Of a stretch of 34,947 nucleotides of DNA, positions 3-19,545 are shown piece after piece. Positions within the stretch are counted from its first letter, which is position 1. Each line of letters begins with the position of its first letter. This DNA comes from a bacterium (GTDB lineage Bacteria > Acidobacteriota > Blastocatellia > HR10). A model generated the notes under the pieces. It was not told the origin of the DNA, did no database searches, and worked only from the letters and a program-made list of their open reading frames with translations. The translations under genes were made by a program, and so were the position numbers. Where the stretch lies: positions 1 through 34,947 of the forward strand of contig JBEPZV010000027.1 of the NCBI GenBank assembly GCA_041640655.1, read 5' to 3'.

Positions 3-293
3 AACTGGCGCGTGGAGCTGGAGCCCGACGTCATTCCGGCGCTGGAGATCAATCGCGAGGCCGAGGTGCGGCTGCGCATCCTTCCCCCTCCGGATGTGCC
101 CGTCGGAGAATACGAGGTGCGGATTCGAGCGGAGAGCTCGGCCTACGGACGGCGCGTGCAGGCTGAGGACAAGATCTACCGGGTGAGTGTGAAAGCGCGC
201 ACCGAGCTGTGGACGACGGCCGTGCTGATCGGCGGCCTGCTCGCGCTGGTCATTGGGATCGTCATCTTCGGTGTTCGACTCACGCGACGATGA
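3..293 (+). CDS. C-terminal part of a membrane-anchored Ig-like (NEW3-like) protein associated with an ABC transporter; 5'-truncated by the window edge
   Basis: Frame is open from base 3. Beta-strand pattern 'VRLRILPPPDVPVGEYEVRIRAES' is followed by a C-terminal TM helix and a basic tail (RLTRR). Lies directly upstream of an ABC ATPase. Confidence 0.6.
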   Translation, partial: NWRVELEPDVIPALEINREAEVRLRILPPPDVPVGEYEVRIRAESSAYGRRVQAEDKIYRVSVKARTELWTTAVLIGGLLALVIGIVIFGVRLTRR

Positions 294-310
294 GATCGGG
301 AGAAAGGGCG

Positions 311-1048
311 ATGATCGAGGCCATCAATTTGACCAAGCGGTATGAGGATGGGACGTTGGCCCTGGACGGGCTCACGTTGAAGGTCAATCCGGGGGAGATC
401 TATTGCCTGCTCGGGGAGAACGGGGCGGGAAAGACGACGACGATCAACCTCTTTCTGAACTTCATCGAGCCGACGGCCGGTCGGGCGCTCATCAATGGCA
501 TTGATGTGACGCGCGATCCTCTGGAGGCGAAGAAGTACGTCGCCTACTTGCCGGAGAACGTCATGCTCTATGGGAACTTCACGGCGCGGCAGAACCTGGA
601 CTTCTTCGCGAAGCTGGGGGGGCGGCGCGACCTCCGCCGGGAGGACTACTATCGCGTCATGCGCGAGATCGGGCTGCCGGAGAAGGCGTTCGAGCAGAAG
701 GTGAAGGAATTCTCCAAGGGGATGCGGCAGAAGCTCGGTCTGGCCATCTGCATGATCAAGCAGGCGCCGGCGATGCTCCTGGATGAGCCGACGGCGGGAT
801 TGGATCCGGCCTCGGCGGCCGAACTGCTGCACCTGCTCCGGCGGTTGCGGGAAGAGGGGCGGGCGATTCTCATGTCCACGCACGACATCTTCCGGACGAA
901 AGAGATTGCGGATCGAGTGGGCATTCTCAAGCAGGGTCGGTTGGTCGTGGAACTGACCGCGCGCGAATTGGCGCACGAGAACTTGGAGCGGCTGTATCTG
1001 GAATACGTCGCCGGAACCGCTCTTCCCCAAGCGGGAGACGCCGCGTAG
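311..1048 (+). CDS. ABC transporter ATP-binding protein (ABC-2/exporter type)
   Basis: Walker A GENGAGKT, signature FSKGMRQK, Walker B LLDEP, H-loop STHD. ATG at 311 follows GAAAGGG. Confidence 0.93.
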   Translation: MIEAINLTKRYEDGTLALDGLTLKVNPGEIYCLLGENGAGKTTTINLFLNFIEPTAGRALINGIDVTRDPLEAKKYVAYLPENVMLYGNFTARQNLDFFAKLGGRRDLRREDYYRVMREIGLPEKAFEQKVKEFSKGMRQKLGLAICMIKQAPAMLLDEPTAGLDPASAAELLHLLRRLREEGRAILMSTHDIFRTKEIADRVGILKQGRLVVELTARELAHENLERLYLEYVAGTALPQAGDAA

Positions 1049-1266: not shown

Positions 1267-1294
1267 TTGCACTCGCACGAAGGGGGCATATAAT
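1267..1294 (+). promoter_or_regulatory. Candidate sigma70 promoter for the ECF sigma gene
   Basis: TTGCAC-16 nt-TATAAT, about 70 nt upstream of ATG 1364. Confidence 0.5.
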
Positions 1295-1363: not shown

Positions 1364-1936
1364 ATGATGCGCTTCGAACGCGCCAGCGATGCGGAATTGG
1401 TACGCGCGTGCATACGGGGCGAGGCGGCGGCGTGGGAAGCGCTGATCACTCGCTACGAGCGCCTCATCTACTCGATCTCGCGCACCCAGCATCTGACGGC
1501 CGACGAGGCGGATGAGGTCTTTCAACAGGTGTGTTTCCTCTTGCTCACGCGCTTGGAGACGCTCAAGGACCATTCTCGGCTGAGCGCCTGGGTGATCACG
1601 ACGACTTTGCGCGAATGTTGGAAGCTTCGGCGGCGCGTCCGCGAACGCGAGGATGAGGCGGATCCTGATTCGCTCGTGCACATTCCCGATCCGCAACCGC
1701 TGCCGGATGAAGTGATCGAGCGGCTCGAGCGGCAGCACCTGATCCGTCAGGGATTGAAGGAACTCCCCGAGCGATGTCGTCGGCTCCTCGTGCTGCTCTT
1801 CTATGAGAAGCGATCCTACGAGGAGATCTCCCGCGAGTTGGGGCTGCCTCCATCCAGCATCGGACCGGTTCGGGCTCGGTGTTTGAAGCGGTTGAAGAAG
1901 GTGCTCGAGCGGTTTGGCCTGTTCGCCGATCGGTGA
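1364..1936 (+). CDS. ECF-family RNA polymerase sigma factor (sigma 1)
   Basis: Region 2 'SDAELVRAC..AWEALITRYERLIY..DEVFQQV' and region 4 'LPERCRRLLVLLFYEKRSYEEISRELGLPPSSIGPVRARCL'. RBS GGAAGGGAG. Confidence 0.92.
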   Translation: MMRFERASDAELVRACIRGEAAAWEALITRYERLIYSISRTQHLTADEADEVFQQVCFLLLTRLETLKDHSRLSAWVITTTLRECWKLRRRVREREDEADPDSLVHIPDPQPLPDEVIERLERQHLIRQGLKELPERCRRLLVLLFYEKRSYEEISRELGLPPSSIGPVRARCLKRLKKVLERFGLFADR

Positions 1937-1970
1937 GGATACCGATCGGCCGGCGCGATTTTTCGCCGGA

Positions 1971-1998
1971 TGTATTTTTTCGTGGCCCGGGAATCTCT
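1971..1998 (+). promoter_or_regulatory. Candidate ECF-dependent promoter (TGTATTTTTT...CTCT), copy 1
   Basis: The same motif occurs at 7340-7366. Both copies are intergenic and upstream of genes of this cluster. Confidence 0.4.
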
Positions 1999-2018
1999 GT
2001 AAGTGTGGGGGGACGAGG

Positions 2019-2639
2019 ATGCGCTGCGGGGATTACGGACGTTTGATCGCATGGGTCTGTGGTGAAGTCTCCGAGGCCGAGCGGGCGCGCATTGAGGCGC
2101 ATCTTGAGGAGTGTGCGGCCTGTCGGCGCGAGGCGGGCGAGCTTGAGACCCTGATCCATTTGATGCGGACCGATGAGAGCATCGAGGCGCCTCCCGAAGT
2201 TCGGGCGGCGGTCCTGCGGCTGTTCGAGGCGAGTCGGGGGGCGACGGCTTCCGGGATACGGCGGTGGATCGCCTCTCTGGTGCGCGATACCTGGGCGAGG
2301 CCGGCGGTGGCGGGAGTGCGCGGTCAAGGGGAGGCGGCGCGCCAGATGCTCTATCGAGGTGGAGGCTATGAGATCGCTCTGGCTCTGGAGCCGATCGCAG
2401 GGAGGCGGGTTCGCCTGATCGGACAGATTCTTCCCCTTTCGGATCGGCCGGAAGAAGTCGCCGGACGCGAAGTCTCCCTGCGGCGGGGGCGGGAGCCGAT
2501 CGCGCGCGGGAGGACGAATCATCTGGGGGAATTCGAGTTCGCGGCGATCCCCGAAGGGATCTACCAGTGGGAGATTCGCCTTGAGGGAGAAGAGGTGTGG
2601 ATCCCACAACTCGATGTTCGGGCCAGAGCGCGCCACTAG
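2019..2639 (+). CDS. Soluble zf-HC2 (ZAS) anti-sigma factor with C-terminal beta-sandwich (carboxypeptidase-regulatory-like) domain
   Basis: HxxxCxxC motif HLEECAAC near the N-terminus; directly downstream of the ECF sigma; no TM helix visible; C-terminal 'TNHLGEFEFAAIPEGIYQWEI' pattern. Confidence 0.85.
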   Translation: MRCGDYGRLIAWVCGEVSEAERARIEAHLEECAACRREAGELETLIHLMRTDESIEAPPEVRAAVLRLFEASRGATASGIRRWIASLVRDTWARPAVAGVRGQGEAARQMLYRGGGYEIALALEPIAGRRVRLIGQILPLSDRPEEVAGREVSLRRGREPIARGRTNHLGEFEFAAIPEGIYQWEIRLEGEEVWIPQLDVRARARH

Positions 2640-5517
2640 TTCGGCCCGGGCGCGCGCGGCGTTCGTGGAGCAACTGATCGAGTGCGCGACTCTGGAGAAG
2701 GCGCGGCGGATGCTTCGGAAAGCGCGCCAGGTCGTGGACCTCTCTCTGTGCGAGGCTCTGAGGGCGCGGGTTGCGCGCGAGGTGCGGACCGATGTGAAGC
2801 GGGCTCAAAAGCTCGCGGCGCTCTGTCAGCTCGTGGCCCGGCGCGTGCGCGATCCGCGGGCCCGGGCTGTGGCGGCGCATGCGCGAGCGATGGTGCTCGA
2901 TAGTGCGGGGGATTACCGCCGTGCGCTTCCGCTCTATGAGCAGGCTGAACGCCTCTACGAGCAGGTGGGGGCTTCGCTGGAGGCCGCGCGCATCCGACGC
3001 GCGAAGATGGGCGCGCTCATGTATCTGGGACGCTATGCGCAAGCGCTCTCTGCGGCGCGCGCGGCGTACGTCGTGTTCGCGGCGCATCGGCAGCGCCGAT
3101 TGAGGGCTGAGGTGCTCGCGAATCTCGGGGCGATCTATCATCATCTAGATCGGTATCCGGAAGCCCTCGCCTGTCTTCGCGAGGCGCGGCGGAGGTTGAG
3201 CTGGCACCGGGACGGTGTGGCGCGCGCGCATGTGGAGTTGAATCTGGCGATCGTTCACGTCTGTCTAGGGCACGTCGAAGCGGCACGGCGAGGGTTCGAG
3301 CAGGCGCGCGCGCAGTATGAGCGGTTGGGCCTCTCGCTGATGGTCGTGCAGGCGGAATACAATCGCGCGTCGCTGGAGCTGGAGTTGGGGAATCTGTATG
3401 ATGCCCTGCGCTTGTTCCTGCGCGCGAAGACGGCGGCTCGGGCTCTGGGCGAGCGCACGATCCCCTCCCTCTGCGATCTGGATCTGGCCGAGGTTTACCT
3501 CCACCTGAACGCCTTCGCGGAAGCGGTGGCGTCGGCCGAGTCGGCCCTGGAGGCCTTTGAAGCGGCAGGGATGCCGGCCGAGCGGGCGCGCGCGCGTCTG
3601 CTGCGGGGGCTGGGACGCTTGCACATGAAGCAATGGGATCGGGCTCGGGAGGATCTGAAGCGGGCGCGCGAGGAATTCTCGACATTGGGGAATGAGGTCG
3701 CCGCCGCTTTGGCCGATTTCTATCTGGCCGAGCTCTTCCGGCAACAGGGGAGGTGGCGCCAGAGCGAGCGGCTGGCCGAGCGTGCTTATGCCGTCTTCCA
3801 TCGGCACCGCCTGGGGGTGAAGGCGGCAGCCGTTCTGCTGCATCTGGCTCTTCTGAAGAGAGCGCGCGGCAGCGAGGTCGAAGCTCGACGTCTGGCCGCT
3901 CATGCGCGTCGCCTATTGCGACACCGCTCGGCACCTTGGGTGCTGTGGCGCGCGCATGCTCTCTGCGGGCAGCTCGCTGAAGCGCAGGGGCATCGCCGAC
4001 GCGCCATGGGACATTATCGCGAAGCCCTGCGCGCGATCGAACACTGCTGCGCTCACCTTCCCGTGGATGAGATGAAGGCCACATTCCTGTCGGACAAGCT
4101 CGCCGTGTATCAAGCCCTTGCGCGGATGTTCGCGGAGGAAGGGAACGAGGAGGCGGCTCTCACTTACACCGAAGCGGCCAAAGCGCGTGTGCTCCGCGAG
4201 TCTTTTCAGGCGGCGACTCTTGCGTCGGAGACCGATCGCTCACAGCTCTCTCCTCATGGAGGGGGACGCTCGTCACGGATTCTAGCTCGGTGGCGACGTC
4301 TCCGCCAAGAGCTGGACGCCGCCTATACGCATCTGGACCGCTTGCGCTCGTATGGGCAGGTCCGTCACGCACGAATCGCCGCTCTTCAACGAAGCATCCG
4401 AAAACGGGAAGCCGAACTGCAGCAGCTCCTTCCTCACCTCCGGTGGGCGGAGGCGGCTCGGGAAGTATCGCCGCCAGAGCACCCGATCGAGCTATCCCGG
4501 CTTCGGGCCGCACTCGCTCTCGACGAGGTCGTGATCGAGTATATCTGGCTCGATGGTGCGGTGAGCGCCTTTCTCCTGGAGCGCGAGCGGCTTCGGCTCA
4601 TGGGGCCGTTGACGACCTCGGAACGGCTGGAACCGTTGCTCGCTCGGCTGCGCTTTCATGTGAACCATCGCGTGCTGGACGACACCTATATCCGTCGCCA
4701 TGCGCGGACGCTCGAGCGGGCCCTTCGGGAGACATTGAGAGCTCTCTACGACGAGCTGCTGGCGCCGCTTCGAGCGGAGATCCTCGCGAAGCGCCTCATC
4801 ATCGTGCCCGCGGGGGCCTTGCATTACGTTCCTTTTCACGCGCTCTTCGATGGAACGGCGTACATGGTGGAGGATCACGAAGTCACCTACAGTCCGAGCG
4901 CGATGCTCTTCCGACTTTGCCGGGAGCGGGCGTCGCAGCAGGGGGGCATTTCCGGAGAAGGAGCGCTCCTTGTGGGCGTTCCGGATGAGCAGACTCCGCA
5001 TATCGAGGAAGAGGTTCGGCGGCTCGGACGACTCATCGCGGATGCGCGTCTGCTCCTGAGAGAGGCGGCAACCAGCGCGCGGTTTCTCGAAGAGGCCCCA
5101 CATGCCCGCCTCCTGCATGTGGCGGCTCATGCCGTCTTTCGCGCGGATAATCCTCTTTTCTCCGCAGTGCGCCTGTACAACTCGTGGCTGACCTTTTATG
5201 ACCTCTGGCAGCGTCGCTTCCGCGCGGAGTTGGTCGTCCTGAGCGGCTGTCAGACGGGGCTGACGAGCCTCTCTCCGGGCGACGAGATGATGGGACTTCT
5301 GCGCGGTTTCCTCGCCGCCGGTGTTCCCTCTCTGGTGTTGAGCCTCTGGGCCGCACATGATGCTCCGACCACGGAGTTCATGGAGGTGTTCTATCGCCAG
5401 CTCTCCGATGGGCGCTCGAAGCGAGAGGCGATCGCTCGAGCTTACCGCGAGATGAAGGAGCGATATGCCGATCCCTATTTTTGGGCTCCCTTCTTTCTGA
5501 TGGGGAGTCCCGAGTGA
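2614..5517 (+). CDS. TPR-repeat CHAT-domain (caspase/HetF-like) protease, probably cytoplasmic; start uncertain (2581 TTG or 2614 ATG)
   Basis: Degenerate TPRs in the N-terminal half. CHAT motifs IIVPAGALHYVPFHAL, LHVAAH (His), VVLSGCQTG (Cys), LSLW and PYFWAPF. Confidence 0.92.
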   Translation: MFGPERATSSARARAAFVEQLIECATLEKARRMLRKARQVVDLSLCEALRARVAREVRTDVKRAQKLAALCQLVARRVRDPRARAVAAHARAMVLDSAGDYRRALPLYEQAERLYEQVGASLEAARIRRAKMGALMYLGRYAQALSAARAAYVVFAAHRQRRLRAEVLANLGAIYHHLDRYPEALACLREARRRLSWHRDGVARAHVELNLAIVHVCLGHVEAARRGFEQARAQYERLGLSLMVVQAEYNRASLELELGNLYDALRLFLRAKTAARALGERTIPSLCDLDLAEVYLHLNAFAEAVASAESALEAFEAAGMPAERARARLLRGLGRLHMKQWDRAREDLKRAREEFSTLGNEVAAALADFYLAELFRQQGRWRQSERLAERAYAVFHRHRLGVKAAAVLLHLALLKRARGSEVEARRLAAHARRLLRHRSAPWVLWRAHALCGQLAEAQGHRRRAMGHYREALRAIEHCCAHLPVDEMKATFLSDKLAVYQALARMFAEEGNEEAALTYTEAAKARVLRESFQAATLASETDRSQLSPHGGGRSSRILARWRRLRQELDAAYTHLDRLRSYGQVRHARIAALQRSIRKREAELQQLLPHLRWAEAAREVSPPEHPIELSRLRAALALDEVVIEYIWLDGAVSAFLLERERLRLMGPLTTSERLEPLLARLRFHVNHRVLDDTYIRRHARTLERALRETLRALYDELLAPLRAEILAKRLIIVPAGALHYVPFHALFDGTAYMVEDHEVTYSPSAMLFRLCRERASQQGGISGEGALLVGVPDEQTPHIEEEVRRLGRLIADARLLLREAATSARFLEEAPHARLLHVAAHAVFRADNPLFSAVRLYNSWLTFYDLWQRRFRAELVVLSGCQTGLTSLSPGDEMMGLLRGFLAAGVPSLVLSLWAAHDAPTTEFMEVFYRQLSDGRSKREAIARAYREMKERYADPYFWAPFFLMGSPE

Positions 5518-5529
5518 GGAGAAGGTGCG

Positions 5530-7326
5530 ATGAGGAAGATCGTCTCCAGCGTGTTGGTGGTAGTCGGGGTGCTCTTCGGTCGCTTGGGGAGTCTCCCATC
5601 CTGGTCCGAATCGGGTGTCCTCTGTTCTCACCTCGAAGGCCGTAACATTGCGGCTGAGGACGATGATCGGCAGGAGGCGGAACGGAAGATCCAACGCGCG
5701 CAAGCGGCCATAGCGCGTGCGCAGGCGGCCATCGAACGAGCGCGTCAGGCGGGAGCCGATGTCCGAGCCGCCGAAGCCAAACTCGAGCAAGCGCAAGCGA
5801 AATTGGCCGCCGCGCGCGCGGCGTTCGAGGCCGGTCACTACGAGAAGGCGGCCGAAGAGGCCGAAGAAGCCGAGGAGTTGGCCAAAGAGGCTGAAGAGCT
5901 GGCTAAGGACGCCGAAGAAGATCTCTCGGATCGGCATCGTGCCGTCGAGGCGCTTCAGGAAGCCGAACAGGCTATAGCGCGCGCGCAGGCGGCCATCGAA
6001 CGAGCGCGTCAGGCGGGAGTCGATGTCCGAGCCGCCGAAGCCAAACTCGAGCAAGCGCAAGCGAAATTGGCCGCCGCGCGCGCGGCGTTCGACCAAAGCG
6101 AGTTTCAGCGCGCCCGAGAATTGGCCCGAGAAGCCGAAGAGCTGGCCGAAGAGGCTCGGGAGCTGGCCGAGGGGGAGGATTCTCGGGACTCGGTCGAAGA
6201 TGAAGTCGTCTTCGAAGCGACCACTCCCGCTCAGGTCCAGACCATCGCCGCTCGACATGGTCTCACCGTCCTCGAACGGATCGAGGGAACGGGGATCGCG
6301 CGCGCTCGGATCCCTCAGGGGGCGAACGTCGGACAAATTCTCGCATCTTTGAGGACGGATCCCGATGTCGTTCAGAGCGAGCCGAATTTCCTGCTGCAGA
6401 TGCCGGAGGTGGCGCAAAAGACGGTCATCTTCATTGATCAGAAGACGGTGATCTTCATTGATGGCTCTTCTCCGGCGGCCTATTTCGATCAATCGGCCGG
6501 AGCGCGCATCGGACTCGCCGCTGCCCATCGGATCGCGCGGGGAGCCGGCGTGACCGTCGCCATCATTGACACGGGCGTGGATCGCACGCATCCGGCCCTT
6601 CGGAATCGGCTCGCCCCGGGCATGTTCGATTTCATCGAGGGGGATGCCGATCCCTCAGAAGCGGCGGGAGGCCCGGGCTTCGGACATGGGACGTTCGTGG
6701 CCGGGATCGTCGCCCTCGTGGCTCCGGAGGCGAAGATTCTGCCTCTGCGCGCCTTCACGGCCGAAGGCGTGAGCACGAGCTTCACCGTCGCGCGCGCTAT
6801 CCGCTACGCCCTCGCGCAAGGAGCACAGGTCCTCAATTTGAGCTTCGGCATGTTGGGATTCTCGCGCCTCATTGACAGCGCATTGGAAGAAGCGCGGACG
6901 CGTGGGGTGATCGCCGTCGCCTCGGCGGGCAACGATGGACAGGAGGTGCCCCACTATCCCGCGAGTGACGAGTCTGTGCTCGCCGTAGCGGCGACGGATG
7001 CGGCCGATCGCAAGGCGAACTTCTCCAATTACGGGCGTCATGTGGATCTCTCGGCCCCGGGTGTGGGCGTCTACAGCGCCTATCCCGGTGCGCTCTTCGG
7101 CTGGGCGAGCGGAACATCCTTCGCCGCGGCTTTTGTGAGCGGAAGCGCGGCCCTCGTCCTCTCCGCTCTGCCCGCTTCGGTGCGCGCGCGCAGCCGAAGT
7201 CAGGTCATTCGAATCTTGCAGGATTCAGCCAGCGATATTCGAGGGGTGAATCCGCGCCCCTACTGGGGGAAGCTCGGAAGCGGAAGGCTCCACGTGGGGA
7301 ATGCCCTCGCCCTCCTGGCACGATGA
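5530..7326 (+). CDS. S8 (subtilisin-like) serine peptidase with N-terminal hydrophobic segment, duplicated helical domain and propeptide
   Basis: Catalytic triad motifs IIDTGVD, GHGTFVAG and SGTSFAA; oxyanion SAGND; RBS GAGGAGAAGG. Confidence 0.93.
   Translation: MRKIVSSVLVVVGVLFGRLGSLPSWSESGVLCSHLEGRNIAAEDDDRQEAERKIQRAQAAIARAQAAIERARQAGADVRAAEAKLEQAQAKLAAARAAFEAGHYEKAAEEAEEAEELAKEAEELAKDAEEDLSDRHRAVEALQEAEQAIARAQAAIERARQAGVDVRAAEAKLEQAQAKLAAARAAFDQSEFQRARELAREAEELAEEARELAEGEDSRDSVEDEVVFEATTPAQVQTIAARHGLTVLERIEGTGIARARIPQGANVGQILASLRTDPDVVQSEPNFLLQMPEVAQKTVIFIDQKTVIFIDGSSPAAYFDQSAGARIGLAAAHRIARGAGVTVAIIDTGVDRTHPALRNRLAPGMFDFIEGDADPSEAAGGPGFGHGTFVAGIVALVAPEAKILPLRAFTAEGVSTSFTVARAIRYALAQGAQVLNLSFGMLGFSRLIDSALEEARTRGVIAVASAGNDGQEVPHYPASDESVLAVAATDAADRKANFSNYGRHVDLSAPGVGVYSAYPGALFGWASGTSFAAAFVSGSAALVLSALPASVRARSRSQVIRILQDSASDIRGVNPRPYWGKLGSGRLHVGNALALLAR
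5710..6092 (+). repeat. Near-identical direct repeat of about 119 bp (5710-5828 / 5974-6092, 264-bp period) inside the S8 gene
   Basis: Both copies encode IARAQAAIERARQAG(A/V)DVRAAEAKLEQAQAKLAAARAAF. Confidence 0.9.
6415..6462 (+). repeat. 24-bp tandem duplication encoding QKTVIFID x2 at the S8 propeptide/catalytic junction
   Basis: caaaagacggtcatcttcattgat / cagaagacggtgatcttcattgat, with two synonymous differences. Confidence 0.9.
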
Positions 7327-7339
7327 CCCTTCGGGGCGC

Positions 7340-7366
7340 TGTATTTTTTGGCAGCGTCGGCGCTCT
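7340..7366 (+). promoter_or_regulatory. Candidate ECF-dependent promoter (TGTATTTTTT...CTCT), copy 2
   Basis: Matches 1971-1998; lies upstream of ATG 7408. Confidence 0.4.
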
Positions 7367-7407
7367 ATTCCCTGTGGAAGGAGAAATCTCGTGCGATGGA
7401 GGGAGAG

Positions 7408-8232
7408 ATGATGAACAAGAAACTTGTGGTGATCGGCTTAGGATTGTTCGTAGCAACCGCATGGCCGGCCTCCTCGGCCTCCAAGCGCTCCCCATCCGTG
7501 CCCAATGGGGCCGATTTCGAGGCGGGGCTCGTTCGATGCGCGGATGTGATGGTGCCCAGCTCGCTTGCAAACTGCGGGACTGATCCTCTGGTGCGAGGGG
7601 AAGCGGAGATCAAGAAACAAGGGGACATCGAGATCGCCGTTGTGGGAGCTGCGCCCGCGTCCACATATGATGTGGTCTATCGTTCCCTCGATGCTTCGAC
7701 CGAACTCCCTTTGGGGACGCTGACAACAGATAATTCGGGCGATGGCGTGCTCAGGCGGCGGGGATTTTTCCCGGTCGGCACGACGGGAGCCGGCACGATC
7801 GTTTTGAAACGAGACGGGCAGGATCAGTTCCTCAGTGGATTCGATGCTTCCAATGCTGAAGAGGAAAAGTTCGAAGCCGGTCTGGTCCGATGCTCAGAGG
7901 TCACACAGCCCGCCTTGCTTACCTCCTGTGGGACGGATCGGCTCCTTGTGGGAAAGGCCGAGATCGAAGAAGATGGGGAGGTTGAAGTGGCTGTCGTCCG
8001 GGCCGAGCCCAATCAAACATACGACGTCTTCTACCGATCTCCGGACGGCTCGACCCAAGTGTCGTTGGGCTTCCTTGCGACGAATCGGGCCGGAAACGGA
8101 AGGTTGAAGCTTCCGAACTTCTTCCTCTCGGAGATCGGCTCTGGAAACATTGTTCTGCGGCGAAACGGTCAAGATCAATTCGCGACGGGGTTCAAGGTGA
8201 ACCAAGGAGGCAATGGGCGCAGACGCAGATGA
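7408..8232 (+). CDS. Secreted hypothetical protein with two tandem Cys-containing beta-rich domains
   Basis: Signal peptide MMNKKLVVIGLGLFVATAWPASS. Internal repeat FEAGLVRC...CGTD...TYDVxYRS...GQDQFxxGF occurs twice. Confidence 0.8.
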   Translation: MMNKKLVVIGLGLFVATAWPASSASKRSPSVPNGADFEAGLVRCADVMVPSSLANCGTDPLVRGEAEIKKQGDIEIAVVGAAPASTYDVVYRSLDASTELPLGTLTTDNSGDGVLRRRGFFPVGTTGAGTIVLKRDGQDQFLSGFDASNAEEEKFEAGLVRCSEVTQPALLTSCGTDRLLVGKAEIEEDGEVEVAVVRAEPNQTYDVFYRSPDGSTQVSLGFLATNRAGNGRLKLPNFFLSEIGSGNIVLRRNGQDQFATGFKVNQGGNGRRRR

Positions 8233-8257
8233 TTCGCCCTTCGGTTCGACTGGAAAG

Positions 8258-8284
8258 AGGGGCTTCACCCGAAGCCCCTTTTTT
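8258..8284 (+). terminator. Intrinsic terminator, possibly bidirectional
   Basis: Stem AGGGGCTTC-accc-GAAGCCCCT followed by a T run, between convergent genes. Confidence 0.8.
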
Positions 8285-9165
8285 CACAGGAGGCCTTTCG
8301 CCCTGAGGAACGCTCGGATGACCTCGCGCGGGTCGCGATGTTCTCCATCCACGGCATAGTTCAATCGGCGCATCTCCTCCGCAGAGATGCGTCCCCCCAA
8401 CCGTTCCAGGAGGGCGCGGAGTTCGGGATGGCGGCGCAAGGTCTCGACGCGCACGATGGGCACGGCCTCATACGGGGGGAAGTAGTGACGATCGTCGTCC
8501 AGGGCGACGAGGTCGAGTGCGGCGATCACGCCATCGGTGGAATTGCCGGCCACGACGTCCACCTGCCGCTCCCGGAGCGCGCGATAGATCAAACCGAGGT
8601 CCATGATGCGGGGCGGCTCGGCGAAGCGCAATCCGTAGGTGCGGGCCAATCCGGGGAAGCCGTCGGCGCGCTCCATGAATTCGTAACCGAATCCGGCGCG
8701 CCAGCGCGGCGCGTGCGGCACCAGATCGGAGATCGTGCGCAGGTTCAGCCGACGCGCGTCCTCGCCGCGCACGACGATGGCGAAGGTGTTCTCGAAGCCC
8801 AGCGGTCGCAACCATTCGATGCCGAATTGCGCGAGATAGGCGTCGCGCACCTGCTGATAGGCCTGGCGGGGATCGTGCACGGGCGCGCGGTTGAGGATGG
8901 CCGTGAGCGCCGTCCCCGTGTACTCGACGTAGAGATCAATCTGCCCGGAGACGATCGCGCGATGACAGATGAACGTCCCCCCGAGGTTGAGGCGGCGCTC
9001 GACACGAAGCCTCGTCTTCGCCTCAAGATATTGGGCGAGCAGTTCACCGAGCACGATCTGCTCGGTGAAATTCTTCGAGCCGATGACGATCTTCCCTCCC
9101 GAGCGCGAACAGGAGGGGACGAGCGCCACCAGCAGAAGCGCCATGAGGAGGGCGCGGGCGATCAT
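8284..9165 (-). CDS. Glycine betaine/osmoprotectant ABC transporter substrate-binding lipoprotein (OpuC/OsmF-like)
   Basis: Lipobox-like LVPSC; motifs IGSKNFTEQ, YVEYTGT, GFENTFA and FPPY. Confidence 0.92.
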   Translation of the reverse strand: MIARALLMALLLVALVPSCSRSGGKIVIGSKNFTEQIVLGELLAQYLEAKTRLRVERRLNLGGTFICHRAIVSGQIDLYVEYTGTALTAILNRAPVHDPRQAYQQVRDAYLAQFGIEWLRPLGFENTFAIVVRGEDARRLNLRTISDLVPHAPRWRAGFGYEFMERADGFPGLARTYGLRFAEPPRIMDLGLIYRALRERQVDVVAGNSTDGVIAALDLVALDDDRHYFPPYEAVPIVRVETLRRHPELRALLERLGGRISAEEMRRLNYAVDGEHRDPREVIRAFLRAKGLL

Positions 9166-14689: not shown

Positions 14690-16360
14690 GTGAACGTCGG
14701 CACACCACATCGTCGCAGGGGGCCCGCCCCCCATTGGTCGAAGGGCTCGCGAGTCGCCCTCATTCTGCTTGTGCTTCTCGGTGACGGCGGGGCATTCTCC
14801 GGCTTCGCCACGTCGTTCCTTCCTGAAGAATCCCCCCGATCGAGCGCGGTGCAATCGGCCGGGCGGCGGTATCGGCAGGCCGAGCGCTTCATGCGCGAGG
14901 GGGATTACGAGAAAGCCGCCCAGGCCTATCGCGAGCTGCTGACGAAGAATCCCAAGGATCAACCGGCGCGGCTGGGACTCAGTCAGGCGCTGTTGAAGCT
15001 CGGGGACCTGAACGAGGCGTTCGAGCATGCGGCCGAAGTGCTGCGACAGGACCCGCAGAGTGCGCGCGCGCGCGCATTGATCGGCCTGGTGCTCCTGCGC
15101 TCGGGCGTCTTTCGAGAAGCGACCGAAGCGTTCGCCGCGGCGCTCGTTCTGGATGAACGCGAGGCCATCGCCTGGGCCGGATTGGCCGAGATTGACTTCT
15201 TCGAGAATCGCACCGAGCTGTCGTACCAACGGCTGCGACGGGCGACGGCGCTCGATCCGAGCGAACCCGACTATTGGATCGCCTTGGGACGGGCCGCCGC
15301 TCGATTGGAGAAGTTCCGCGAGGCGGCCGAGTATTATGAGAAATTCCTGGCCGTCTCCCCCAAGATGGATGTGGAGCGGCGGGAGCGGTATCGCGGATTG
15401 ATCGCCTTCTATCGCGCACTCTCGCTACTGGGCATCACGCATCTGCACCGTATCGAGGGGGAGCGCACGACCCGCATCCCCTTCCGATTGCAACGGGATC
15501 GCCCCTTCATTCAAGCGCGCGCCGGAAACAACGTGCTGCTGAACCTCGTCATTGATACGGGCGCGAGCATCTCCGTGCTCTCCTACGAGGCGGCGGAACG
15601 GTTGGGCATTCGTCCACTGGCGCGCGGGGGCGAGGCGCGCGCCGTCGGCGGCGGTGGGAAGTTCCCCATCGTCTATGGCTTGCTGGATTCGCTCGACCTG
15701 GGCGAGATTCGCATCTTCAACGTCCCGATCTATATTCGCACGATTCACCACACGGGAAATCCCGAGGGTGAGGGCGAAGCCGTGCGGGCCGACGGTTTCC
15801 TCGGACTCTCGGTATTGGCGAATTTCCGGTTCACCATCGACTATGCCGCGCAGACGATCATCTTGGAGACCGAACCGGTATCGGCGACGACCCCGGCGCC
15901 CATCGCAGAGGGTTCGGAGATCCCCTTCCGCACGACCAACGGCGGTCTGGTCAGCGCCGAGGTCAAACTGCATAACGGCGAGATCGTGAACTTCCTGATT
16001 GATACCGGGGCCAGCGCCACCGTCGTCGGCGCCCACGTGGTGAAGAAATACAACCTGGAGAAGCATATCCTCCCGTCTCCGAAGATTCGCGTGCTCGGCG
16101 CCGCAGGCGTCATCGAGAACGTAGATCTGATCCTGCTGCCCTCCCTCTCGATGAACAGCTTGGAGCAACGGAACATTCGCGCGCCGGTCCTCGACCTGGG
16201 AGCGGTAAACGAATCGGCGGGCTTCATGCAAGCGGGGATTCTGGGCGGGAGCTTCCTCAAACATTTCCGCGTGACGTTCGATTTCTCCCGCGCGCGGATT
16301 CGGCTCGTGCCGCAGACCGATGCCATCCGGTCCACGAACGAGCGACCTTCGGAGGGATGA
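14690..16360 (+). CDS. Exported or membrane-anchored TPR protein with two retropepsin-like aspartic protease domains
   Basis: N-terminal hydrophobic stretch and TPRs, then LVIDTGAS...GFLGLSVL and FLIDTGAS...GILGGSFL. Confidence 0.88.
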   Translation: MNVGTPHRRRGPAPHWSKGSRVALILLVLLGDGGAFSGFATSFLPEESPRSSAVQSAGRRYRQAERFMREGDYEKAAQAYRELLTKNPKDQPARLGLSQALLKLGDLNEAFEHAAEVLRQDPQSARARALIGLVLLRSGVFREATEAFAAALVLDEREAIAWAGLAEIDFFENRTELSYQRLRRATALDPSEPDYWIALGRAAARLEKFREAAEYYEKFLAVSPKMDVERRERYRGLIAFYRALSLLGITHLHRIEGERTTRIPFRLQRDRPFIQARAGNNVLLNLVIDTGASISVLSYEAAERLGIRPLARGGEARAVGGGGKFPIVYGLLDSLDLGEIRIFNVPIYIRTIHHTGNPEGEGEAVRADGFLGLSVLANFRFTIDYAAQTIILETEPVSATTPAPIAEGSEIPFRTTNGGLVSAEVKLHNGEIVNFLIDTGASATVVGAHVVKKYNLEKHILPSPKIRVLGAAGVIENVDLILLPSLSMNSLEQRNIRAPVLDLGAVNESAGFMQAGILGGSFLKHFRVTFDFSRARIRLVPQTDAIRSTNERPSEG

Positions 16361-16830
16361 ACGTGGCCAAGATCAGCATCTACCTGGAGACATCGGTCAT
16401 CGGCGCCTATCTGGATAACGAGGACCCGTTCCGCCGTGACCTGACCATCCGCTGGTGGGAACATGAGCGCCCGCTCTACGACGCCTATATCTCGCCGCTC
16501 GTCGTGCGCGAGCTGGAACGGATGCGAGAGCCCCGCCGACAGGCCTATCTGAACCTCATCCGCGACATCCCCCAACTGGAGATCACCGAGGAGGTGGGCA
16601 TCCTGGCCGAAGGTTATATCGCGCGCGGTATCTTCCAGCGCAAGTACATGGCCGATGCGCTCCATGTGGCCGTGGCGTCCTTTCACAAAATCGACTTCCT
16701 GGTCACCTGGAACTTCGGCTACCTGGCCAATGTCTACCGGCAAGCGCGCGTGCGGCTGTTCAACGTCACGTCAGGTTTCTTCGTGCCGACGATCATCACG
16801 CCGGAATTCTTGGTCTCCGAGGTCGGGTGA
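16357..16830 (+). CDS. PIN-domain protein (VapC-like)
   Basis: IYLETSVI, ISPLVVRE, DALHVAVA, LVTWN; ATGA overlap with the upstream gene. Confidence 0.85.
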   Translation: MNVAKISIYLETSVIGAYLDNEDPFRRDLTIRWWEHERPLYDAYISPLVVRELERMREPRRQAYLNLIRDIPQLEITEEVGILAEGYIARGIFQRKYMADALHVAVASFHKIDFLVTWNFGYLANVYRQARVRLFNVTSGFFVPTIITPEFLVSEVG

Positions 16831-17640: not shown

Positions 17641-18558
17641 TTACGGATAGTGGAGCGCAACCAGATACTCCGCGATCTTCTGAAGGCGCTTCCCACTCCG
17701 GCCGTAGAGCAGTAGCCGATAGGTCCCCGGACTCAGGAACGTGCGATCCAGCGTGAGGGTGAAATTTCCCCGCCGGTCTCGTTGCCACCCGACTGCACGC
17801 CAGCGAACGCCCCCCTGCCGATCCACAATCTCGATGGCGTAGCTCGAATACTCGGGCAGCCCCTCCCCGTTGAGAACCAGCGTGAAGCTTCTCGCCCCCG
17901 GCGAAACGGTGACCCGATTGACCGGGTCCGTCTGCCCGGATCGCAAAAGCGCTTCTTGTGAGAAGACGTCATAGACCGGAATGTTCAGTTGCGGCTGCCG
18001 AAGCCGAGCCAGTTGCGATTCCAGTTCGGTTAATCGCGAGGCATAGTCACGCTCGACGGCGTCCGTCCGGTCCTGAAGGCGACGATGTTCGCGCTCCAGC
18101 TCCAGGCGCCGCGTCTGCTCGGTGTGCAATTGGTGGGCCAACTGCTGCCGCTCCTGCCGCAGGTGGAGCGCCCAGAGGGTCATCAGTCCCACCGCCACCA
18201 GCGCGCTCGCGGCCAGAGCAAAGAGCGCTCGCGCGGGAAACCACGCGCTTTTTCGGAAGACGGCGGCTTCTTCCTCGCGCAGGTGTCGTCGGAAGGCCCG
18301 CCACTGCCGCCGAACGAAGCGTTCGCCGACCGGTTCCTCTCCCTCCCGAACGTCGTCGAAGAAATCTGCCACGTCTTTGAAGGCTGCCAGGCACCGATCG
18401 CACTGCACCAAATGCGACTGCACGGCGTCCGCGTCGGCCGCCTCAAGTTGCCCCCGATGATATGCCATCAGCTCCTCGTCATCGAGATGACGTCCCAGGC
18501 GGTCTTCCCATCCCCCGCCGAGAGCTTCCCAGTATCGTCGCAATTCCTCGCTGCTCAT
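17641..18558 (-). CDS. Transmembrane zf-HC2 anti-sigma factor with coiled coil and extracytoplasmic beta domain
   Basis: HLDDEEL...HLVQCDRC; TM ALFALAASALVAVGLMTLWAL; RBS GGAGGAGG; downstream of an ECF sigma. Confidence 0.85.
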   Translation of the reverse strand: MSSEELRRYWEALGGGWEDRLGRHLDDEELMAYHRGQLEAADADAVQSHLVQCDRCLAAFKDVADFFDDVREGEEPVGERFVRRQWRAFRRHLREEEAAVFRKSAWFPARALFALAASALVAVGLMTLWALHLRQERQQLAHQLHTEQTRRLELEREHRRLQDRTDAVERDYASRLTELESQLARLRQPQLNIPVYDVFSQEALLRSGQTDPVNRVTVSPGARSFTLVLNGEGLPEYSSYAIEIVDRQGGVRWRAVGWQRDRRGNFTLTLDRTFLSPGTYRLLLYGRSGKRLQKIAEYLVALHYP

Positions 18559-18626
18559 CGTCCCTCCTCCGCGAGAGTGCGCAAACGAAGGTCTCGCCGC
18601 GCCTTCCCGGCAAACGCGATGTTCAT
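18555..18626 (-). CDS. 23-aa linker minigene (MNIAFAGKARRDLRLRTLAEEGR)
   Basis: ATGA overlap with the sigma stop (18623-18626) and ATGA overlap with the anti-sigma start (18555-18558). Confidence 0.35.
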   Translation of the reverse strand: MNIAFAGKARRDLRLRTLAEEGR

Positions 18627-19240
18627 GGGAGCCCCTCGCCGAAGACCGCAGCGAGTTTCGCCTGAAGCGCCCGCCGCCCCTGATGAAGATGAGCTTTGAC
18701 GGTATTGACGGAGAGGCCCATGATGGTCGCGATCTCCTGAACGGATTGTTCCTTCACGATTCGGAGGTACAGACAGCGGCGCATCTGCGGCGGCAGCTCC
18801 TCGAGGGCCTCGCGCAGCTTCTCCAACTTCTCCTTCTGCAGCACTCTCTCCATTGGATCGGCTCCACCGGTCACGACGTGCCGGGCCTCGCGATCGGACT
18901 CCGACGCGTGCGCCTGCTGCTCTTCCAGCGGGACCTGGGCGACGGCCCGCTTTTTCGCCCCTCGCCGCTCCATCTCGTTGATGTAGACATTCTTCGCGAT
19001 CCGATATAGCCATAACTCGAATTGGGCGGCCTCCCGCAGCTCGCCCAACCCTCTATAGACAGAAAAAAACGCCTCCTGGGTGAGGTCGCGCGCATCTTCC
19101 GACGACAACCCCTTTCGGCAGAAGAAGCGATAGAGCTGGCCGTAGTAGCGCTCGAACAGCAGGCGGAAGTTCTCTTCCCTGTCCCGCCCCTGTTGCAATT
19201 CCCGGATGATCACCGCCGTCGGCTTCTCCGACCCGATCAT
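18623..19240 (-). CDS. ECF-family RNA polymerase sigma factor (sigma 2)
   Basis: FRLLFERYY..EDARDLTQEAF..WLYRIAKN; region 4 LPPQMRRCL..EIATIMGLSVNTVKAHLHQGR. Confidence 0.93.
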   Translation of the reverse strand: MIGSEKPTAVIIRELQQGRDREENFRLLFERYYGQLYRFFCRKGLSSEDARDLTQEAFFSVYRGLGELREAAQFELWLYRIAKNVYINEMERRGAKKRAVAQVPLEEQQAHASESDREARHVVTGGADPMERVLQKEKLEKLREALEELPPQMRRCLYLRIVKEQSVQEIATIMGLSVNTVKAHLHQGRRALQAKLAAVFGEGLP

Positions 19241-19276
19241 GCTCAGGATTATACTCCTCCGAGGCCCACAACGTCA

Positions 19277-19362
19277 TCACGGCCCTACCGTGAGGGGCGC
19301 GCGCTGGCCAGGAGAAATGTGGACGTTTTGAAATTCCCGCTCATCCATCCAGGCGGAGAAGA
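19277..19362 (-). pseudogene. 3' fragment of a DUF2442-like gene interrupted by the IS607 element
   Basis: Reads VFSAWMDEREFQNVHISPG..., in frame with the 5' fragment once 19363-21066 is removed. Confidence 0.65.
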
Positions 19363-19545
19363 CCGTTGCCGGGACCATAGAAATCTATCCCCGACATCCG
19401 CCCGTTGCCGGGCGGAGGCGCCGGTCTTACGCGCAAGCCGCGCTGCCGGCTTCCCGCTTCCTCCAGGACTGCCTGCCCACTCCAGGTCTTACGTCCCGTC
19501 CACGGGCGTTTTCCGTCTCCGGTCCACTCCCGGCGACGGCGGCCG
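19345..19545 (-). ncRNA. Putative TnpB omega/reRNA scaffold plus flank-derived guide
   Basis: Overlaps the tnpB 3' end and the right end (hairpin TCCGCCCG-gcaa-CGGGCGGA; ends ...GGCAACGG). The 5' boundary is approximate. Confidence 0.55.

What the first reader, a model, noticed from the sequence alone, without database searches (positions are those of the whole stretch)
1364..8232. Candidate caspase-gated signalling cassette: ECF sigma + soluble ZAS anti-sigma + TPR-CHAT protease + S8 subtilase + secreted effector
Seen: five co-oriented genes closed by one terminator. The anti-sigma has no TM helix, the CHAT protein keeps its His/Cys motifs (AAH, LSGC) and has no visible signal peptide, and the S8 has an intact D/H/S triad. 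Established: TPR-CHAT domains are tied to ECF sigma control in type III-E CRISPR (Csx29/Csx30/CASP-sigma) and in Myxococcus DdvS/DdvA. Inference: this is a CRISPR-independent two-protease circuit. A TPR-sensed signal would activate CHAT, which would cut the anti-sigma and/or mature the subtilase, releasing sigma to induce the cassette.
Basis: partly seen in the sequence, partly recalled or inferred. Interest (0 to 1): 0.85.

Follow-up and report, generated by a model that had tools for sequence, protein, structure and literature searches.

The report
Sigma switch with caspase-like protease
A hot-spring acidobacterium carries a widely conserved four-gene unit (sigma factor, soluble zinc-type inhibitor, cytoplasmic caspase-like protease, secreted subtilisin) that probably turns genes on by cutting the inhibitor; the gene set is already catalogued but has never been tested at the bench.

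Summary
Five co-oriented genes (1364-8232) end at a real terminator, and every stated domain and catalytic motif is present. Only the first four genes form a conserved unit. Collinear sigma / anti-sigma / TPR-CHAT / S8 was found in 57 of 61 assessable loci seeded by the sigma factor, and a paralogous copy lies on another contig of this genome. The fifth gene recurs in 2 of 117 other loci.

The combination is not new. It matches the computationally described "ECF54" context (CarboxypepD_reg-like +1 protein, subtilase, TPR-CHAT), and this scan met it at least 14 times on other DNA.

- The cassette occurs in Acidobacteriota and a second phylum.
- The +1 protein has a hidden zinc anti-sigma domain and one invariant arginine in an exposed loop.
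- The operon promoter looks housekeeping-type.
- The exported S8 carries 2-6 identical copies of a 6-8-residue peptide after its prodomain. Identity is kept despite synonymous changes, and the peptide diverges in step with the TPR part of the CHAT protein.

Best reading (0.5): CHAT cuts the soluble anti-sigma factor and frees sigma. Bolder reading (0.2): S8 releases a peptide signal that the TPR senses. No cleavage or binding was shown.

The parts
1267..1294 (+). Promoter-like site TTGCAC-N16-TATAAT upstream of the sigma gene
   Evidence: Read from the sequence. The C30 paralogue has TTGCGC-N16-TATACT. 16 of 124 related upstream regions have GCTAGACA-N~17-TATGCT-like pairs, against 0 on the opposite strand. 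The simple scanner did not flag the window site because its -35 matches only 3 of 6.
1364..1936 (+). ECF-type sigma factor (190 aa)
   Evidence: TIGR02937 E 1.7e-25; Sigma70_r2, r4 and r4_2. It belongs to a distinct clade, scoring E 1e-30 to 1e-81 against the cassette sigma model, while neighbouring non-cassette ECF sigmas score about 1e-13. C16, C138 and C173 are invariant in 34 of 34.
2019..2639 (+). Soluble two-domain anti-sigma factor (206 aa): N-terminal zinc anti-sigma helices plus C-terminal beta-sandwich
   Evidence: zf-HC2. AF2 model has pLDDT 88.8, with helices at 6-74 and a beta-sandwich at 81-200. No TM helix. CarboxypepD_reg matched in 12 of 35 relatives. The best solved look-alike is ChrR, but weakly (E 4e-3).
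2295..2339 (+). Exposed loop (residues 93-107) holding invariant Arg101: candidate cleavage or recognition site
   Evidence: R101 is one of only two invariant columns in 35 sequences. The loop is the lowest-confidence part of the model, with block pLDDT about 65. Its role as a cleavage site is inference.
2581..5517 (+). Cytoplasmic TPR-CHAT protease (ORF from 2581; homologues align from 2665, giving 950 aa)
   Evidence: CHAT E 6.5e-59 and TPR_12. AF2 pLDDT 87.8, pTM 0.83, with TPR at 1-505 and CHAT at 700-950. Foldseek finds separase at 1e-15, Csx29 8eey_B at 4e-14 (TMt 0.55) and DdvA at 3e-12. Dyad H850 (5128-5130) and C890 (5248-5250) are kept in at least 95% of 108.
5530..7326 (+). Exported S8 subtilase (598 aa): hydrophobic N-terminus, two DUF4398 coiled-coil repeats, fervidolysin-type prodomain, catalytic domain
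   Evidence: Pfam. Triad D347/H386/S530 and N468 are kept in 98-100% of 96. 87 of 96 relatives have a hydrophobic N-terminal segment.
6415..6462 (+). Tandem identical octapeptides QKTVIFID x2 between the prodomain and the catalytic domain of S8
   Evidence: The two copies differ at 2 of 24 nucleotides but at no residue. 40 of 96 cassette S8s have such tandems (2 to at least 6 copies).
7408..8232 (+). Lineage-specific secreted two-repeat protein (274 aa), not part of the conserved unit
   Evidence: No Pfam or NCBIfam match. Found only in L068 and L069 among 117 other loci. It belongs to a family of 58 unnamed proteins.
8256..8285 (.). Intrinsic terminator (hairpin with flanking A-run and T-run, possibly bidirectional) shared with the convergent OpuAC operon
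   Evidence: z -3.2. The OpuAC gene at 8284-9165 lies on the minus strand.

Best explanation
This is a four-gene, protease-gated sigma-factor switch of the ECF54-type context.

Proposed sequence of events:
1. The operon is transcribed from a housekeeping-type promoter, so all parts are present in the resting cell.
2. The soluble anti-sigma factor holds the ECF sigma factor through its N-terminal zinc-binding helices (inferred from family membership).
3. The cytoplasmic TPR-CHAT protease is kept inactive until its TPR array binds a signal (inferred by analogy with separase and Csx29).
4. It then cuts the anti-sigma factor, most likely in the exposed loop around invariant Arg101 of the beta-sandwich domain (inferred).
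5. The damaged anti-sigma factor is lost and sigma is freed to direct transcription of a regulon that is not identified here.
6. The fourth gene, an exported self-processing subtilase, is either an output of the unit or the source of its signal.

What is shown: the gene order and its conservation, the domain identities, the conserved catalytic residues, the cytoplasmic versus exported topology, and the folds.

What is not shown: sigma/anti-sigma binding, any cleavage, the signal and the regulon.
For: - **Conserved order.** Collinear sigma/anti-sigma/TPR-CHAT/S8 occurs in 57 of 61 sigma-seeded loci with at least 6 kb downstream, in 20 of 36 anti-sigma-seeded loci with 8 more holding all four in another order, and in 5 of 12 loci from a second phylum sample.
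- **Paralogue.** A second cassette lies on C30 at 46/34/38/52% identity.
- **Active enzymes.** The CHAT dyad is kept in at least 95% of 108 and the S8 triad in 98-100% of 96.
- **Anti-sigma motif.** H-x3/4-C-x2-C is present in 29 of 35 aligned and 101 of 120 non-identical +1 proteins.
- **Topology.** No TM helix in 35 of 35 anti-sigma factors, and no export signal in 29 of 29 CHAT proteins.
- **Candidate site.** R101 is invariant and lies in a low-confidence surface loop.
- **Fold.** The TPR-CHAT fold matches separase, Csx29 and DdvA.
- **Precedents read in papers.** Csx29 cuts Csx30 to relieve inhibition of CASP-sigma (PMC10028731, passages). CalpL/CalpT/CalpS form a protease / anti-sigma / ECF-like sigma effector system (abstracts in the listing). 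Proteolytic control has been proposed for ECF54 (PMC8999054, passage).
Against: - No cleavage or binding was demonstrated.
- 6 of 35 +1 proteins lack the zinc anti-sigma part altogether yet keep sigma, CHAT and S8 as neighbours. Sigma sequestration by that domain therefore cannot be the whole story in those lineages.
- Sigma itself has three invariant cysteines of unknown role.
- The role of S8 is unexplained by this model alone.
- No ECF-type target promoter was found.
- CHAT specificity for Arg is only an analogy with separase.
Confidence: 0.5

Rival explanations
1. Peptide-signalling loop, an extension of the main model. The exported S8 processes itself and releases the 6-8-residue repeat units as an extracellular oligopeptide. 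The peptide is taken up, by an Opp-type importer where one is linked. It binds the TPR array of the cytoplasmic CHAT protease and switches it on. This would be a quorum-sensing-like circuit with a caspase-like receptor-protease.
For: - 40 of 96 cassette S8s carry 2 to at least 6 tandem copies of one short peptide at the prodomain/catalytic junction. More have spaced or degenerate copies.
- In 22 of 25 tandems examined, the copies are identical in protein while differing at 0-5 of 18-24 nucleotides. The other 3 of 25 also differ at residue level: 1 residue each in L044 and L120, and L045, whose first two copies are identical but whose array is followed by further degenerate copies near the catalytic domain.
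- The unit differs between orthologues and between paralogues of one genome (window QKTVIFID against C30 QRSQAFVD).
- Peptide distance tracks TPR divergence best (r 0.76, n=13; r 0.37, n=24). It keeps a positive partial correlation given CHAT domain, anti-sigma, sigma or S8 (0.32-0.64 and 0.12-0.27). No other part does so once TPR is given.
- An Opp-like binding protein and permeases abut the cassette in about 12 of 130 loci, in several arrangements.
- In this genome, 1 of only 3 SBP_bac_5 genes sits directly upstream of the paralogous cassette.
Against: - Over half of the S8s (56 of 96) have no perfect tandem. By eye in the listing, about 30 of these belong to one long-S8 group with no repeat at all.
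- The window's own cassette has no Opp neighbour; its upstream ABC ATPase is exporter-type (DrrA-like).
- Partial Mantel tests are inflated by shared ancestry, and TPR is simply the faster clock among the slower parts.
- No released peptide, uptake or binding is shown.
- The repeats could be plain autoprocessing sites.
Confidence: 0.2
2. S8 is only an output. The switch senses an unknown intracellular cue through the TPR, and the co-transcribed exported subtilase (plus variable secreted beta-rich proteins) is the product it delivers, for example for protein foraging or cell-surface remodelling.
For: - S8 is exported with its own prodomain and needs no cytoplasmic partner.
- Cassettes often carry variable secreted cargo. 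Examples are the window's fifth gene and DUF5666/CusF-like or DUF4214 repeat proteins inserted between sigma and anti-sigma. Pfam matched these families in 9 of the 12 insert proteins scanned.
Against: - The promoter upstream looks housekeeping-type, so S8 would be made whether or not sigma is freed.
- This reading does not explain selection for identical tandem peptides or their tracking of the TPR.
Confidence: 0.2
3. CHAT acts on the subtilase. The tandem units of the Q..AF[IV]D class end in Asp and are caspase-like cleavage sites cut by CHAT before export.
For: - The class A unit ends in an invariant Asp preceded by hydrophobic residues (D22 and D30 invariant, F20 and F28 in at least 90% of 12).
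- The peptide co-varies with the CHAT protein.
Against: - 87 of 96 S8s have an export segment while CHAT has none.
- Class B units (G.SW..) have no Asp.
- The covariation is with the TPR part, not the CHAT domain (partial r -0.32 and -0.17 given TPR).
Confidence: 0.07
4. Anti-phage or conflict system. The TPR senses a phage protein and CHAT triggers a defensive transcription programme, as proposed for DdvA/DdvS and shown for type III-E.
For: - The fold resembles Csx29 and DdvA.
- The window also holds PIN toxins, TnpB and a helicase-nuclease that matches PADLOC PDC-S37 and Hhe models.
Against: - Sigma, anti-sigma and CHAT match no PADLOC model at E 1e-5 or better.
- No cas genes are nearby.
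- There are up to 7 copies per genome.
- No plasmid carries a full-length relative: 0 of 56 matching records cover at least 80% of the query.
- Neighbours are housekeeping transporters.
Confidence: 0.08

Closest known systems
ECF54 genomic context (Huang et al. 2015, not held here and recalled only through citations; Casas-Pastor et al. 2021, PMC7826278, supplement file 1 part 14 read; review PMC8999054, passages read)
   Same: An ECF sigma factor with a CarboxypepD_reg-like protein at +1, a subtilase and a TPR-CHAT protein as conserved neighbours. Proteolytic control has been proposed and never tested.
   Different: - ECF54 is described as 100% Actinobacteria. Here the hosts are Acidobacteriota (Blastocatellia) and a second phylum.
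- ECF54 is described as lacking an anti-sigma factor. Here the +1 protein has a zinc anti-sigma domain that Pfam detects in only 5 of 35 members.
- The order here is sigma, +1, CHAT, S8, whereas ECF54 has the subtilase at +2 or -1 and CHAT at +3 or -2.
- The ECF54 promoter motif GTATCAG..CTCC was found in 0 of 124 upstream regions.
- I could not compare directly with an actinobacterial member.
Type III-E Craspase: Csx29 (TPR-CHAT), Csx30, CASP-sigma (PMC10028731)
   Same: [quoted passage not shown] Foldseek matches 8eey_B at E 4e-14.
   Different: - There is no Cas7-11 or CRISPR, so activation cannot be RNA-guided.
- The inhibitor is a zinc anti-sigma plus beta-sandwich protein, not Csx30.
- The NCBIfam Csx29 model scores 33.6 bits against a cut-off of 300.
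- An S8 subtilase is part of the unit.
DdvS/DdvA of Myxococcus xanthus (PMC11506125, PMC6061681)
   Same: An ECF sigma factor controlled by a zinc-type anti-sigma domain linked to a TPR-CHAT module. Foldseek matches 8rw5 at E 3e-12.
   Different: DdvA is one transmembrane protein with a periplasmic TPR-CHAT. Here the anti-sigma factor and CHAT are separate, soluble and cytoplasmic. DdvA has no S8 partner.
CalpL/CalpT/CalpS (abstracts in the listing)
   Same: [quoted passage not shown]
   Different: The protease there is a SAVED-Lon activated by cA4 from type III CRISPR. The proteins are unrelated.
RNPP-type peptide quorum sensing and tandem-repeat pheromone precursors cut by S8 (Kex2) proteases (recalled, not read here)
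   Same: Only for the bolder reading: an exported precursor with identical tandem peptide units, oligopeptide import, and a cytoplasmic TPR receptor.
   Different: The units sit inside the protease itself. The receptor would be fused to a caspase-like protease and act on an anti-sigma factor. No homology is claimed.

Membership tests
ECF54-type context | Sigma factor falls in the ECF54 clade (ECF Hub models or tree) | not testable with these tools
   No ECF Hub models are on hand, and no actinobacterial ECF54 member could be fetched. The sample reached lacks WhiB in 0 of 5 genomes, so it is probably not Actinobacteria.
ECF54-type context | +1 protein with a carboxypeptidase-regulatory-like domain | tested here: met
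   PF13620 matches 12 of 35 family members (best E 1.7e-8). The window's own member is below E 0.01 but aligns along its whole length and models as a beta-sandwich.
ECF54-type context | Subtilase and TPR-CHAT protein as conserved neighbours | tested here: met
   57 of 61 loci, with a slightly different order from the published one.
ECF54-type context | Predicted promoter GTATCAG (-35) / CTCC (-10) | tested here: not met
   0 of 124 upstream regions.
ECF54-type context | No anti-sigma factor; Actinobacteria only (descriptive features of the published group) | tested here: not met
   A ZAS motif is present in 101 of 120 +1 proteins. By record titles the hosts are mostly Acidobacteriota.
Type III-E Craspase (Csx29/Csx30/CASP-sigma) | Csx29 family membership and association with Cas7-11 | tested here: not met
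   NF041237 scores 33.6 bits against a cut-off of 300. No cas gene is among the 28 window ORFs scanned. CRISPR arrays were not searched for.
Separase/Craspase-type TPR-CHAT fold | N-terminal helical repeat array plus C-terminal caspase-like domain with a His-Cys dyad | tested here: met
   AF2 pTM 0.83. Foldseek finds separase at 1e-15 and Csx29 at 4e-14. The dyad is conserved.
DdvA-type anti-sigma | Single polypeptide: cytoplasmic ZAS, TM helix, periplasmic TPR-CHAT | tested here: not met
   The genes are separate. 0 of 35 anti-sigma factors have a TM-grade segment, and 0 of 29 CHAT proteins have an N-terminal one.
Zinc-binding anti-sigma (ZAS, zf-HC2) | H-x3-C-x2-C motif in an N-terminal helical anti-sigma domain | tested here: met
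   Window residues H28, C32, C35 and C3. zf-HC2 scores 31.5 bits against a cut-off of 22.2. Four N-terminal helices are modelled.
Zinc-binding anti-sigma (ZAS, zf-HC2) | Binds and inhibits its cognate sigma factor | not tested
Peptidase S8 (subtilase) | Asp-His-Ser triad, oxyanion Asn, N-terminal prodomain | tested here: met
   D347, H386, S530 and N468. Fervidolysin_NPro-like at E 5.6e-6. It is not a mycosin: 174.8 bits against a cut-off of 278.75.

The most novel reading that the evidence does not exclude
The cassette is a self-contained peptide-signalling circuit of a kind not described.
1. The exported subtilase carries its own pheromone as identical tandem 6-8-residue units between prodomain and catalytic domain, and releases them by self-processing.
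2. The peptide re-enters the cell, through Opp-type importers that flank some cassettes.
3. It is read by the TPR array of a caspase-like CHAT protease.
4. CHAT then destroys a soluble zinc anti-sigma factor and frees an ECF sigma factor.

Paralogous cassettes in one genome would be insulated by different peptides.
Probability: 0.2. Interest if true: 0.85.

Novelty: new member of a known kind. Interest (0 to 1): 0.55.

Why it matters
Caspase-like CHAT proteases that switch transcription have so far been shown only inside CRISPR type III-E. The ECF54-type cassette would be the free-standing form.

It is common. The anti-sigma profile finds 1,293 50%-identity clusters at E 1e-30 or better, although part of these are unrelated repeat proteins. 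The sigma search found 346 genomic relatives.

Because protease and presumed substrate are small, soluble and separate, the idea is directly testable in vitro. The candidate site (Arg101) and a candidate ligand (the S8 repeat peptide) give concrete experiments.

If the peptide reading holds, it would be a new family of cell-cell signalling systems in Acidobacteria and Chloroflexi, phyla where almost nothing is known about signalling.

Tried and rejected
- **Complex prediction of TPR-CHAT with the S8 repeat segment.** The verdict was 'no answer', so it counts neither for nor against. The CHAT:anti-sigma and sigma:anti-sigma pairs were therefore never folded, because the cap is one job.
- **The search for related loci with three alignments.** An 8-row sigma alignment worked.
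- **Search for an actinobacterial ECF54 member.** The phylum sample centred on a record titled Rubrobacter is probably not Actinobacteria: WhiB was found in 0 of 5 genomes, and one of its loci equals a record titled Chloroflexaceae (L181 = L137).
- **Plasmid search.** It gave only distant CHAT domains; 0 of 56 records cover at least 80% of the query.
- **ECF54 promoter motif and k-mer search for an ECF-type motif.** Only a sigma-70-like pair emerged.
- **Hairpins after sigma and after S8.** They fold no better than shuffles.
- **RNA.** One metatranscriptome run holds short contigs on 4049-4411 and 7401-8219. These are contigs from an RNA library that may contain DNA, so no conclusion on expression or operon structure follows.
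- **PADLOC.** No defence model matched sigma, anti-sigma or CHAT.
- **Literature searches for a described link.** Searches combining CHAT, peptide quorum sensing, and tandem peptides in subtilases returned nothing relevant. The papers library lacks most subscription journals, and Huang et al. 2015 could not be read.
Full report
**What is there.** The window is contig C27 of a 3.1-Mb, about 90% complete genome. Its DNA recurs in hot-spring metagenomes: 11 runs hold at least half of the sampled words, and three of them may be the source.

Between 1364 and 8232 lie five + strand genes:
- An ECF sigma factor (TIGR02937, 89.5 bits against a cut-off of 42.9).
- A 206-residue protein with a zf-HC2 motif (C3, H28, C32, C35).
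- A TPR-CHAT protein of about 950 residues (CHAT E 6.5e-59).
- A 598-residue S8 subtilase. It has a hydrophobic N-terminus, two DUF4398 coiled-coil repeats, a fervidolysin-type prodomain and the triad D347/H386/S530.
- A 274-residue protein with a signal-peptide-like start and two internal repeats that matches no family.

A hairpin plus T-run at 8256-8285 closes the row. The weaker hairpins after sigma and after S8 are no better than shuffled sequence.

**Is it a unit?** Yes, for four genes.
- The same genome holds a second copy on contig C30 in the same order, at 46, 34, 38 and 52% identity. It lacks a fifth-gene homologue.
- A profile of the anti-sigma protein found full-length relatives in at least 25 of 400 other sampled genomes of the phylum, with up to seven per genome.
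- Of the 36 places fetched, 20 have sigma / anti-sigma / TPR-CHAT / S8 collinear. Eight more hold all four in another order: S8 divergent upstream (2), CHAT-S8-sigma-anti (2), sigma-CHAT-x-anti-S8 (3), and one with S8 on the opposite strand. Two are cut by a contig end, three lack S8 in the DNA fetched, two are sigma plus anti-sigma only, and one is anti-sigma alone.
- Seeding independently with the sigma factor gave 346 genomic relatives. Among the best 80, 57 of the 61 with at least 6 kb downstream have the complete collinear set.
- The four exceptions are L070 (S8 divergent), L075 (sigma only), L112 (sigma plus anti-sigma) and L129 (no S8).
- Record titles place most of these in Acidobacteriota (Blastocatellia, Pyrinomonadaceae, Chloracidobacterium), with a few in Chloroflexota and Zixibacteria.
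- A second phylum sample gave 10 of 301 genomes with strong sigma matches, and 5 of 12 fetched loci were collinear.
- That phylum is probably Chloroflexota rather than Actinobacteria. WhiB was found in 0 of 5 genomes, and one locus equals a record titled Chloroflexaceae.
- The fifth gene recurs only in the two nearest relatives, 2 of 117 other loci, and belongs to an unnamed family of 58 proteins. It is cargo of this lineage, not part of the unit.
- Other lineages carry different cargo. In 12 loci a 350-890-residue ORF sits between sigma and anti-sigma. Pfam matched DUF5666/CusF-like repeats in 7 and DUF4214 in 2.

**The parts.**
- *Anti-sigma factor.* It models with high confidence (pLDDT 88.8) as four N-terminal helices followed by a beta-sandwich. 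The best solved look-alike, weakly, is the soluble two-domain anti-sigma factor ChrR.
- Across 35 relatives only two columns are invariant. One is Arg101, in the motif FDS...P..AG[VFM]R[SG]. It lies in the least confident, exposed loop of the sandwich (residues 93-107).
- None of the 35 has a TM-grade segment.
- 29 of 35 aligned, and 101 of 120 non-identical, +1 proteins keep H-x3/4-C-x2-C. Six lack the N-terminal domain altogether.
- *TPR-CHAT protein.* It models well (pLDDT 87.8, pTM 0.83) and matches separase, Csx29 and DdvA by fold. Its His/Cys dyad is kept in at least 95% of 108 relatives. It has no export signal.
- *S8.* It keeps its triad in 98-100% of 96 relatives, and 87 of 96 have a hydrophobic N-terminal segment.
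- Three proteins are therefore cytoplasmic and one is exported.

**Prior art.**
- The supplement of Casas-Pastor et al. 2021 describes group ECF54 as 100% Actinobacteria. It lists a CarboxypepD_reg-like protein always at +1, a subtilase at +2 or -1, CHAT at +3 or -2, TPR repeats, 'lack of putative AS factor' and a GTATCAG/CTCC promoter.
- A 2022 review lists ECF54 under sigma factors proposed to be controlled by proteolysis.
- Here, 12 of 35 +1 proteins match CarboxypepD_reg, and only 5 of 35 reach zf-HC2. This explains why the anti-sigma domain was missed.
- The ECF54 promoter motif is absent, 0 of 124.
- Instead, the window (TTGCAC-N16-TATAAT, 1267-1294), the paralogue (TTGCGC-N16-TATACT) and 16 of 124 other loci (GCTAGACA-N~17-TATGCT) show sigma-70-like pairs close to the start codon.
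- Earlier agents of this scan reached the same filing on other DNA, so the scan has found this before.

**A feature that needs explaining.**
- Between prodomain and catalytic domain, the window S8 has QKTVIFID twice (6415-6462) and its paralogue has QRSQAFVD twice.
- Of 96 non-identical cassette S8s, 40 have such tandems. There are two classes: 8-mers Q..AF[IV]D, and 6-mers G.[SG]W.. with up to four copies. One 8-mer (QSTGAILD) has at least six copies.
- Several more have spaced or degenerate copies. One large group of long S8s has none.
- In 22 of 25 tandems examined the copies are identical in protein yet differ at 0-5 of 18-24 nucleotides. The remaining three also differ at residue level: one residue each in L044 and L120, while L045 has identical leading copies followed by degenerate ones. 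Identity is therefore maintained by selection rather than by recent slippage.
- The unit changes between orthologues and between paralogues of one genome.
- Peptide distance is best tracked by divergence of the TPR part (r 0.76 for 13 class A cassettes, 0.37 for 24 class B).
- It keeps a positive partial correlation after controlling for the CHAT domain, anti-sigma, sigma or S8 (0.32-0.64, p at most 0.03; 0.12-0.27, p 0.001-0.10).
- No other part keeps one once TPR is given.
- These tests ignore shared ancestry and are suggestive only.
- Opp-type binding proteins and permeases abut about 12 of 130 loci in several arrangements.
- In this genome, one of only three SBP_bac_5 genes sits directly upstream of the paralogous cassette.
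- The window's own upstream ABC ATPase is exporter-type.
- I saw the repeats before consulting the scan's notes. Three earlier notes report the same repeats and importer link on other DNA.

**Mechanism.**
- The best-supported reading is a protease-gated switch. Sigma is held by the zinc anti-sigma domain. TPR-CHAT, activated through its TPR array, cuts the anti-sigma factor, most plausibly at the Arg101 loop, and sigma is freed.
- This rests on conservation, topology, intact catalytic residues and experimental precedents: Csx29/Csx30/CASP-sigma, CalpL/T/S and the DdvA proposal. Binding and cleavage are inferred.
- The exported S8 is the open piece. It may be an output, or, as the repeats, their tracking of the TPR and the Opp neighbours suggest, the source of an oligopeptide signal read by the TPR.
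- Maturation of S8 by CHAT is unlikely on topology.
- A defence role has no support from PADLOC, neighbours or plasmid distribution.

**Verdict.** This is a real, strongly conserved four-gene unit and a member of an already catalogued but untested kind, here in new phyla and with its anti-sigma domain recognised. It is moderately interesting as it stands. It would be highly interesting if the peptide loop is real.

Noticed in passing
G000 contig C30 (L001:2631-14385): A paralogous sigma/anti-sigma/TPR-CHAT/S8 cassette is flanked upstream by an Opp-like SBP_bac_5 gene with two divergent permease genes. Downstream, overlapping S8 by 4 nt, is a GAF-PAS hybrid histidine kinase.
   Followed up: partly
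window 1364-1936 and alignment A4: The cassette sigma factors have three invariant cysteines (C16, C138, C173 in 34 of 34), which is unusual for ECF sigmas. They could bind a metal or sense redox.
   Followed up: no
L059, L063, L052, L062, L065, L067: Six of 35 +1 proteins lack the whole N-terminal zinc anti-sigma domain. They keep the Arg loop, the beta-sandwich and the sigma/CHAT/S8 neighbours.
   Followed up: partly
window 5709-5974: A metagenome contig of a related strain skips 264 nt (88 codons), which is one of the two DUF4398 coiled-coil repeats of the S8 N-terminal region. The repeat number varies between strains.
   Followed up: no
L071-L118 (12 loci): A variable 350-890-residue ORF is inserted between sigma and anti-sigma. 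Pfam matched DUF5666/CusF-like repeats in 7 and DUF4214 in 2. In addition, 23 of 80 loci have a second, distantly related ECF sigma gene just upstream.
   Followed up: partly
window 29353-33339 (+): A second, larger TPR-CHAT protein (1328 aa, 14 TPR_12 stretches) has no sigma or anti-sigma neighbour. A PIN-domain gene follows on the opposite strand (33692-34150). The genome has four CHAT proteins in all.
   Followed up: no
window 17641-20692 (-): A second ECF sigma (18623-19240) with a zf-HC2 anti-sigma factor (17641-18558) lies next to a TnpB/IS605 OrfB gene (19427-20692).
   Followed up: no
window 14690-16830 (+): A protein joins TPR repeats to two retropepsin-like aspartyl protease domains (556 aa). 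It overlaps the start of a PIN-domain gene.
   Followed up: no
window 24193-28938 (+): A 1581-residue SF1 helicase with a C-terminal MTES_1575/DUF559 nuclease domain matches the PADLOC candidate defence models PDC-S37 (E 4.7e-72) and Hhe.
   Followed up: no
window 209-1048 (+): The ABC ATPase directly upstream of the cassette is of the DrrA/ABC-2 exporter type (TIGR01188, E 7.6e-56, below its cut-off). It is not a peptide importer. It is shared with L068, and one search found no match to it in L069.
   Followed up: partly
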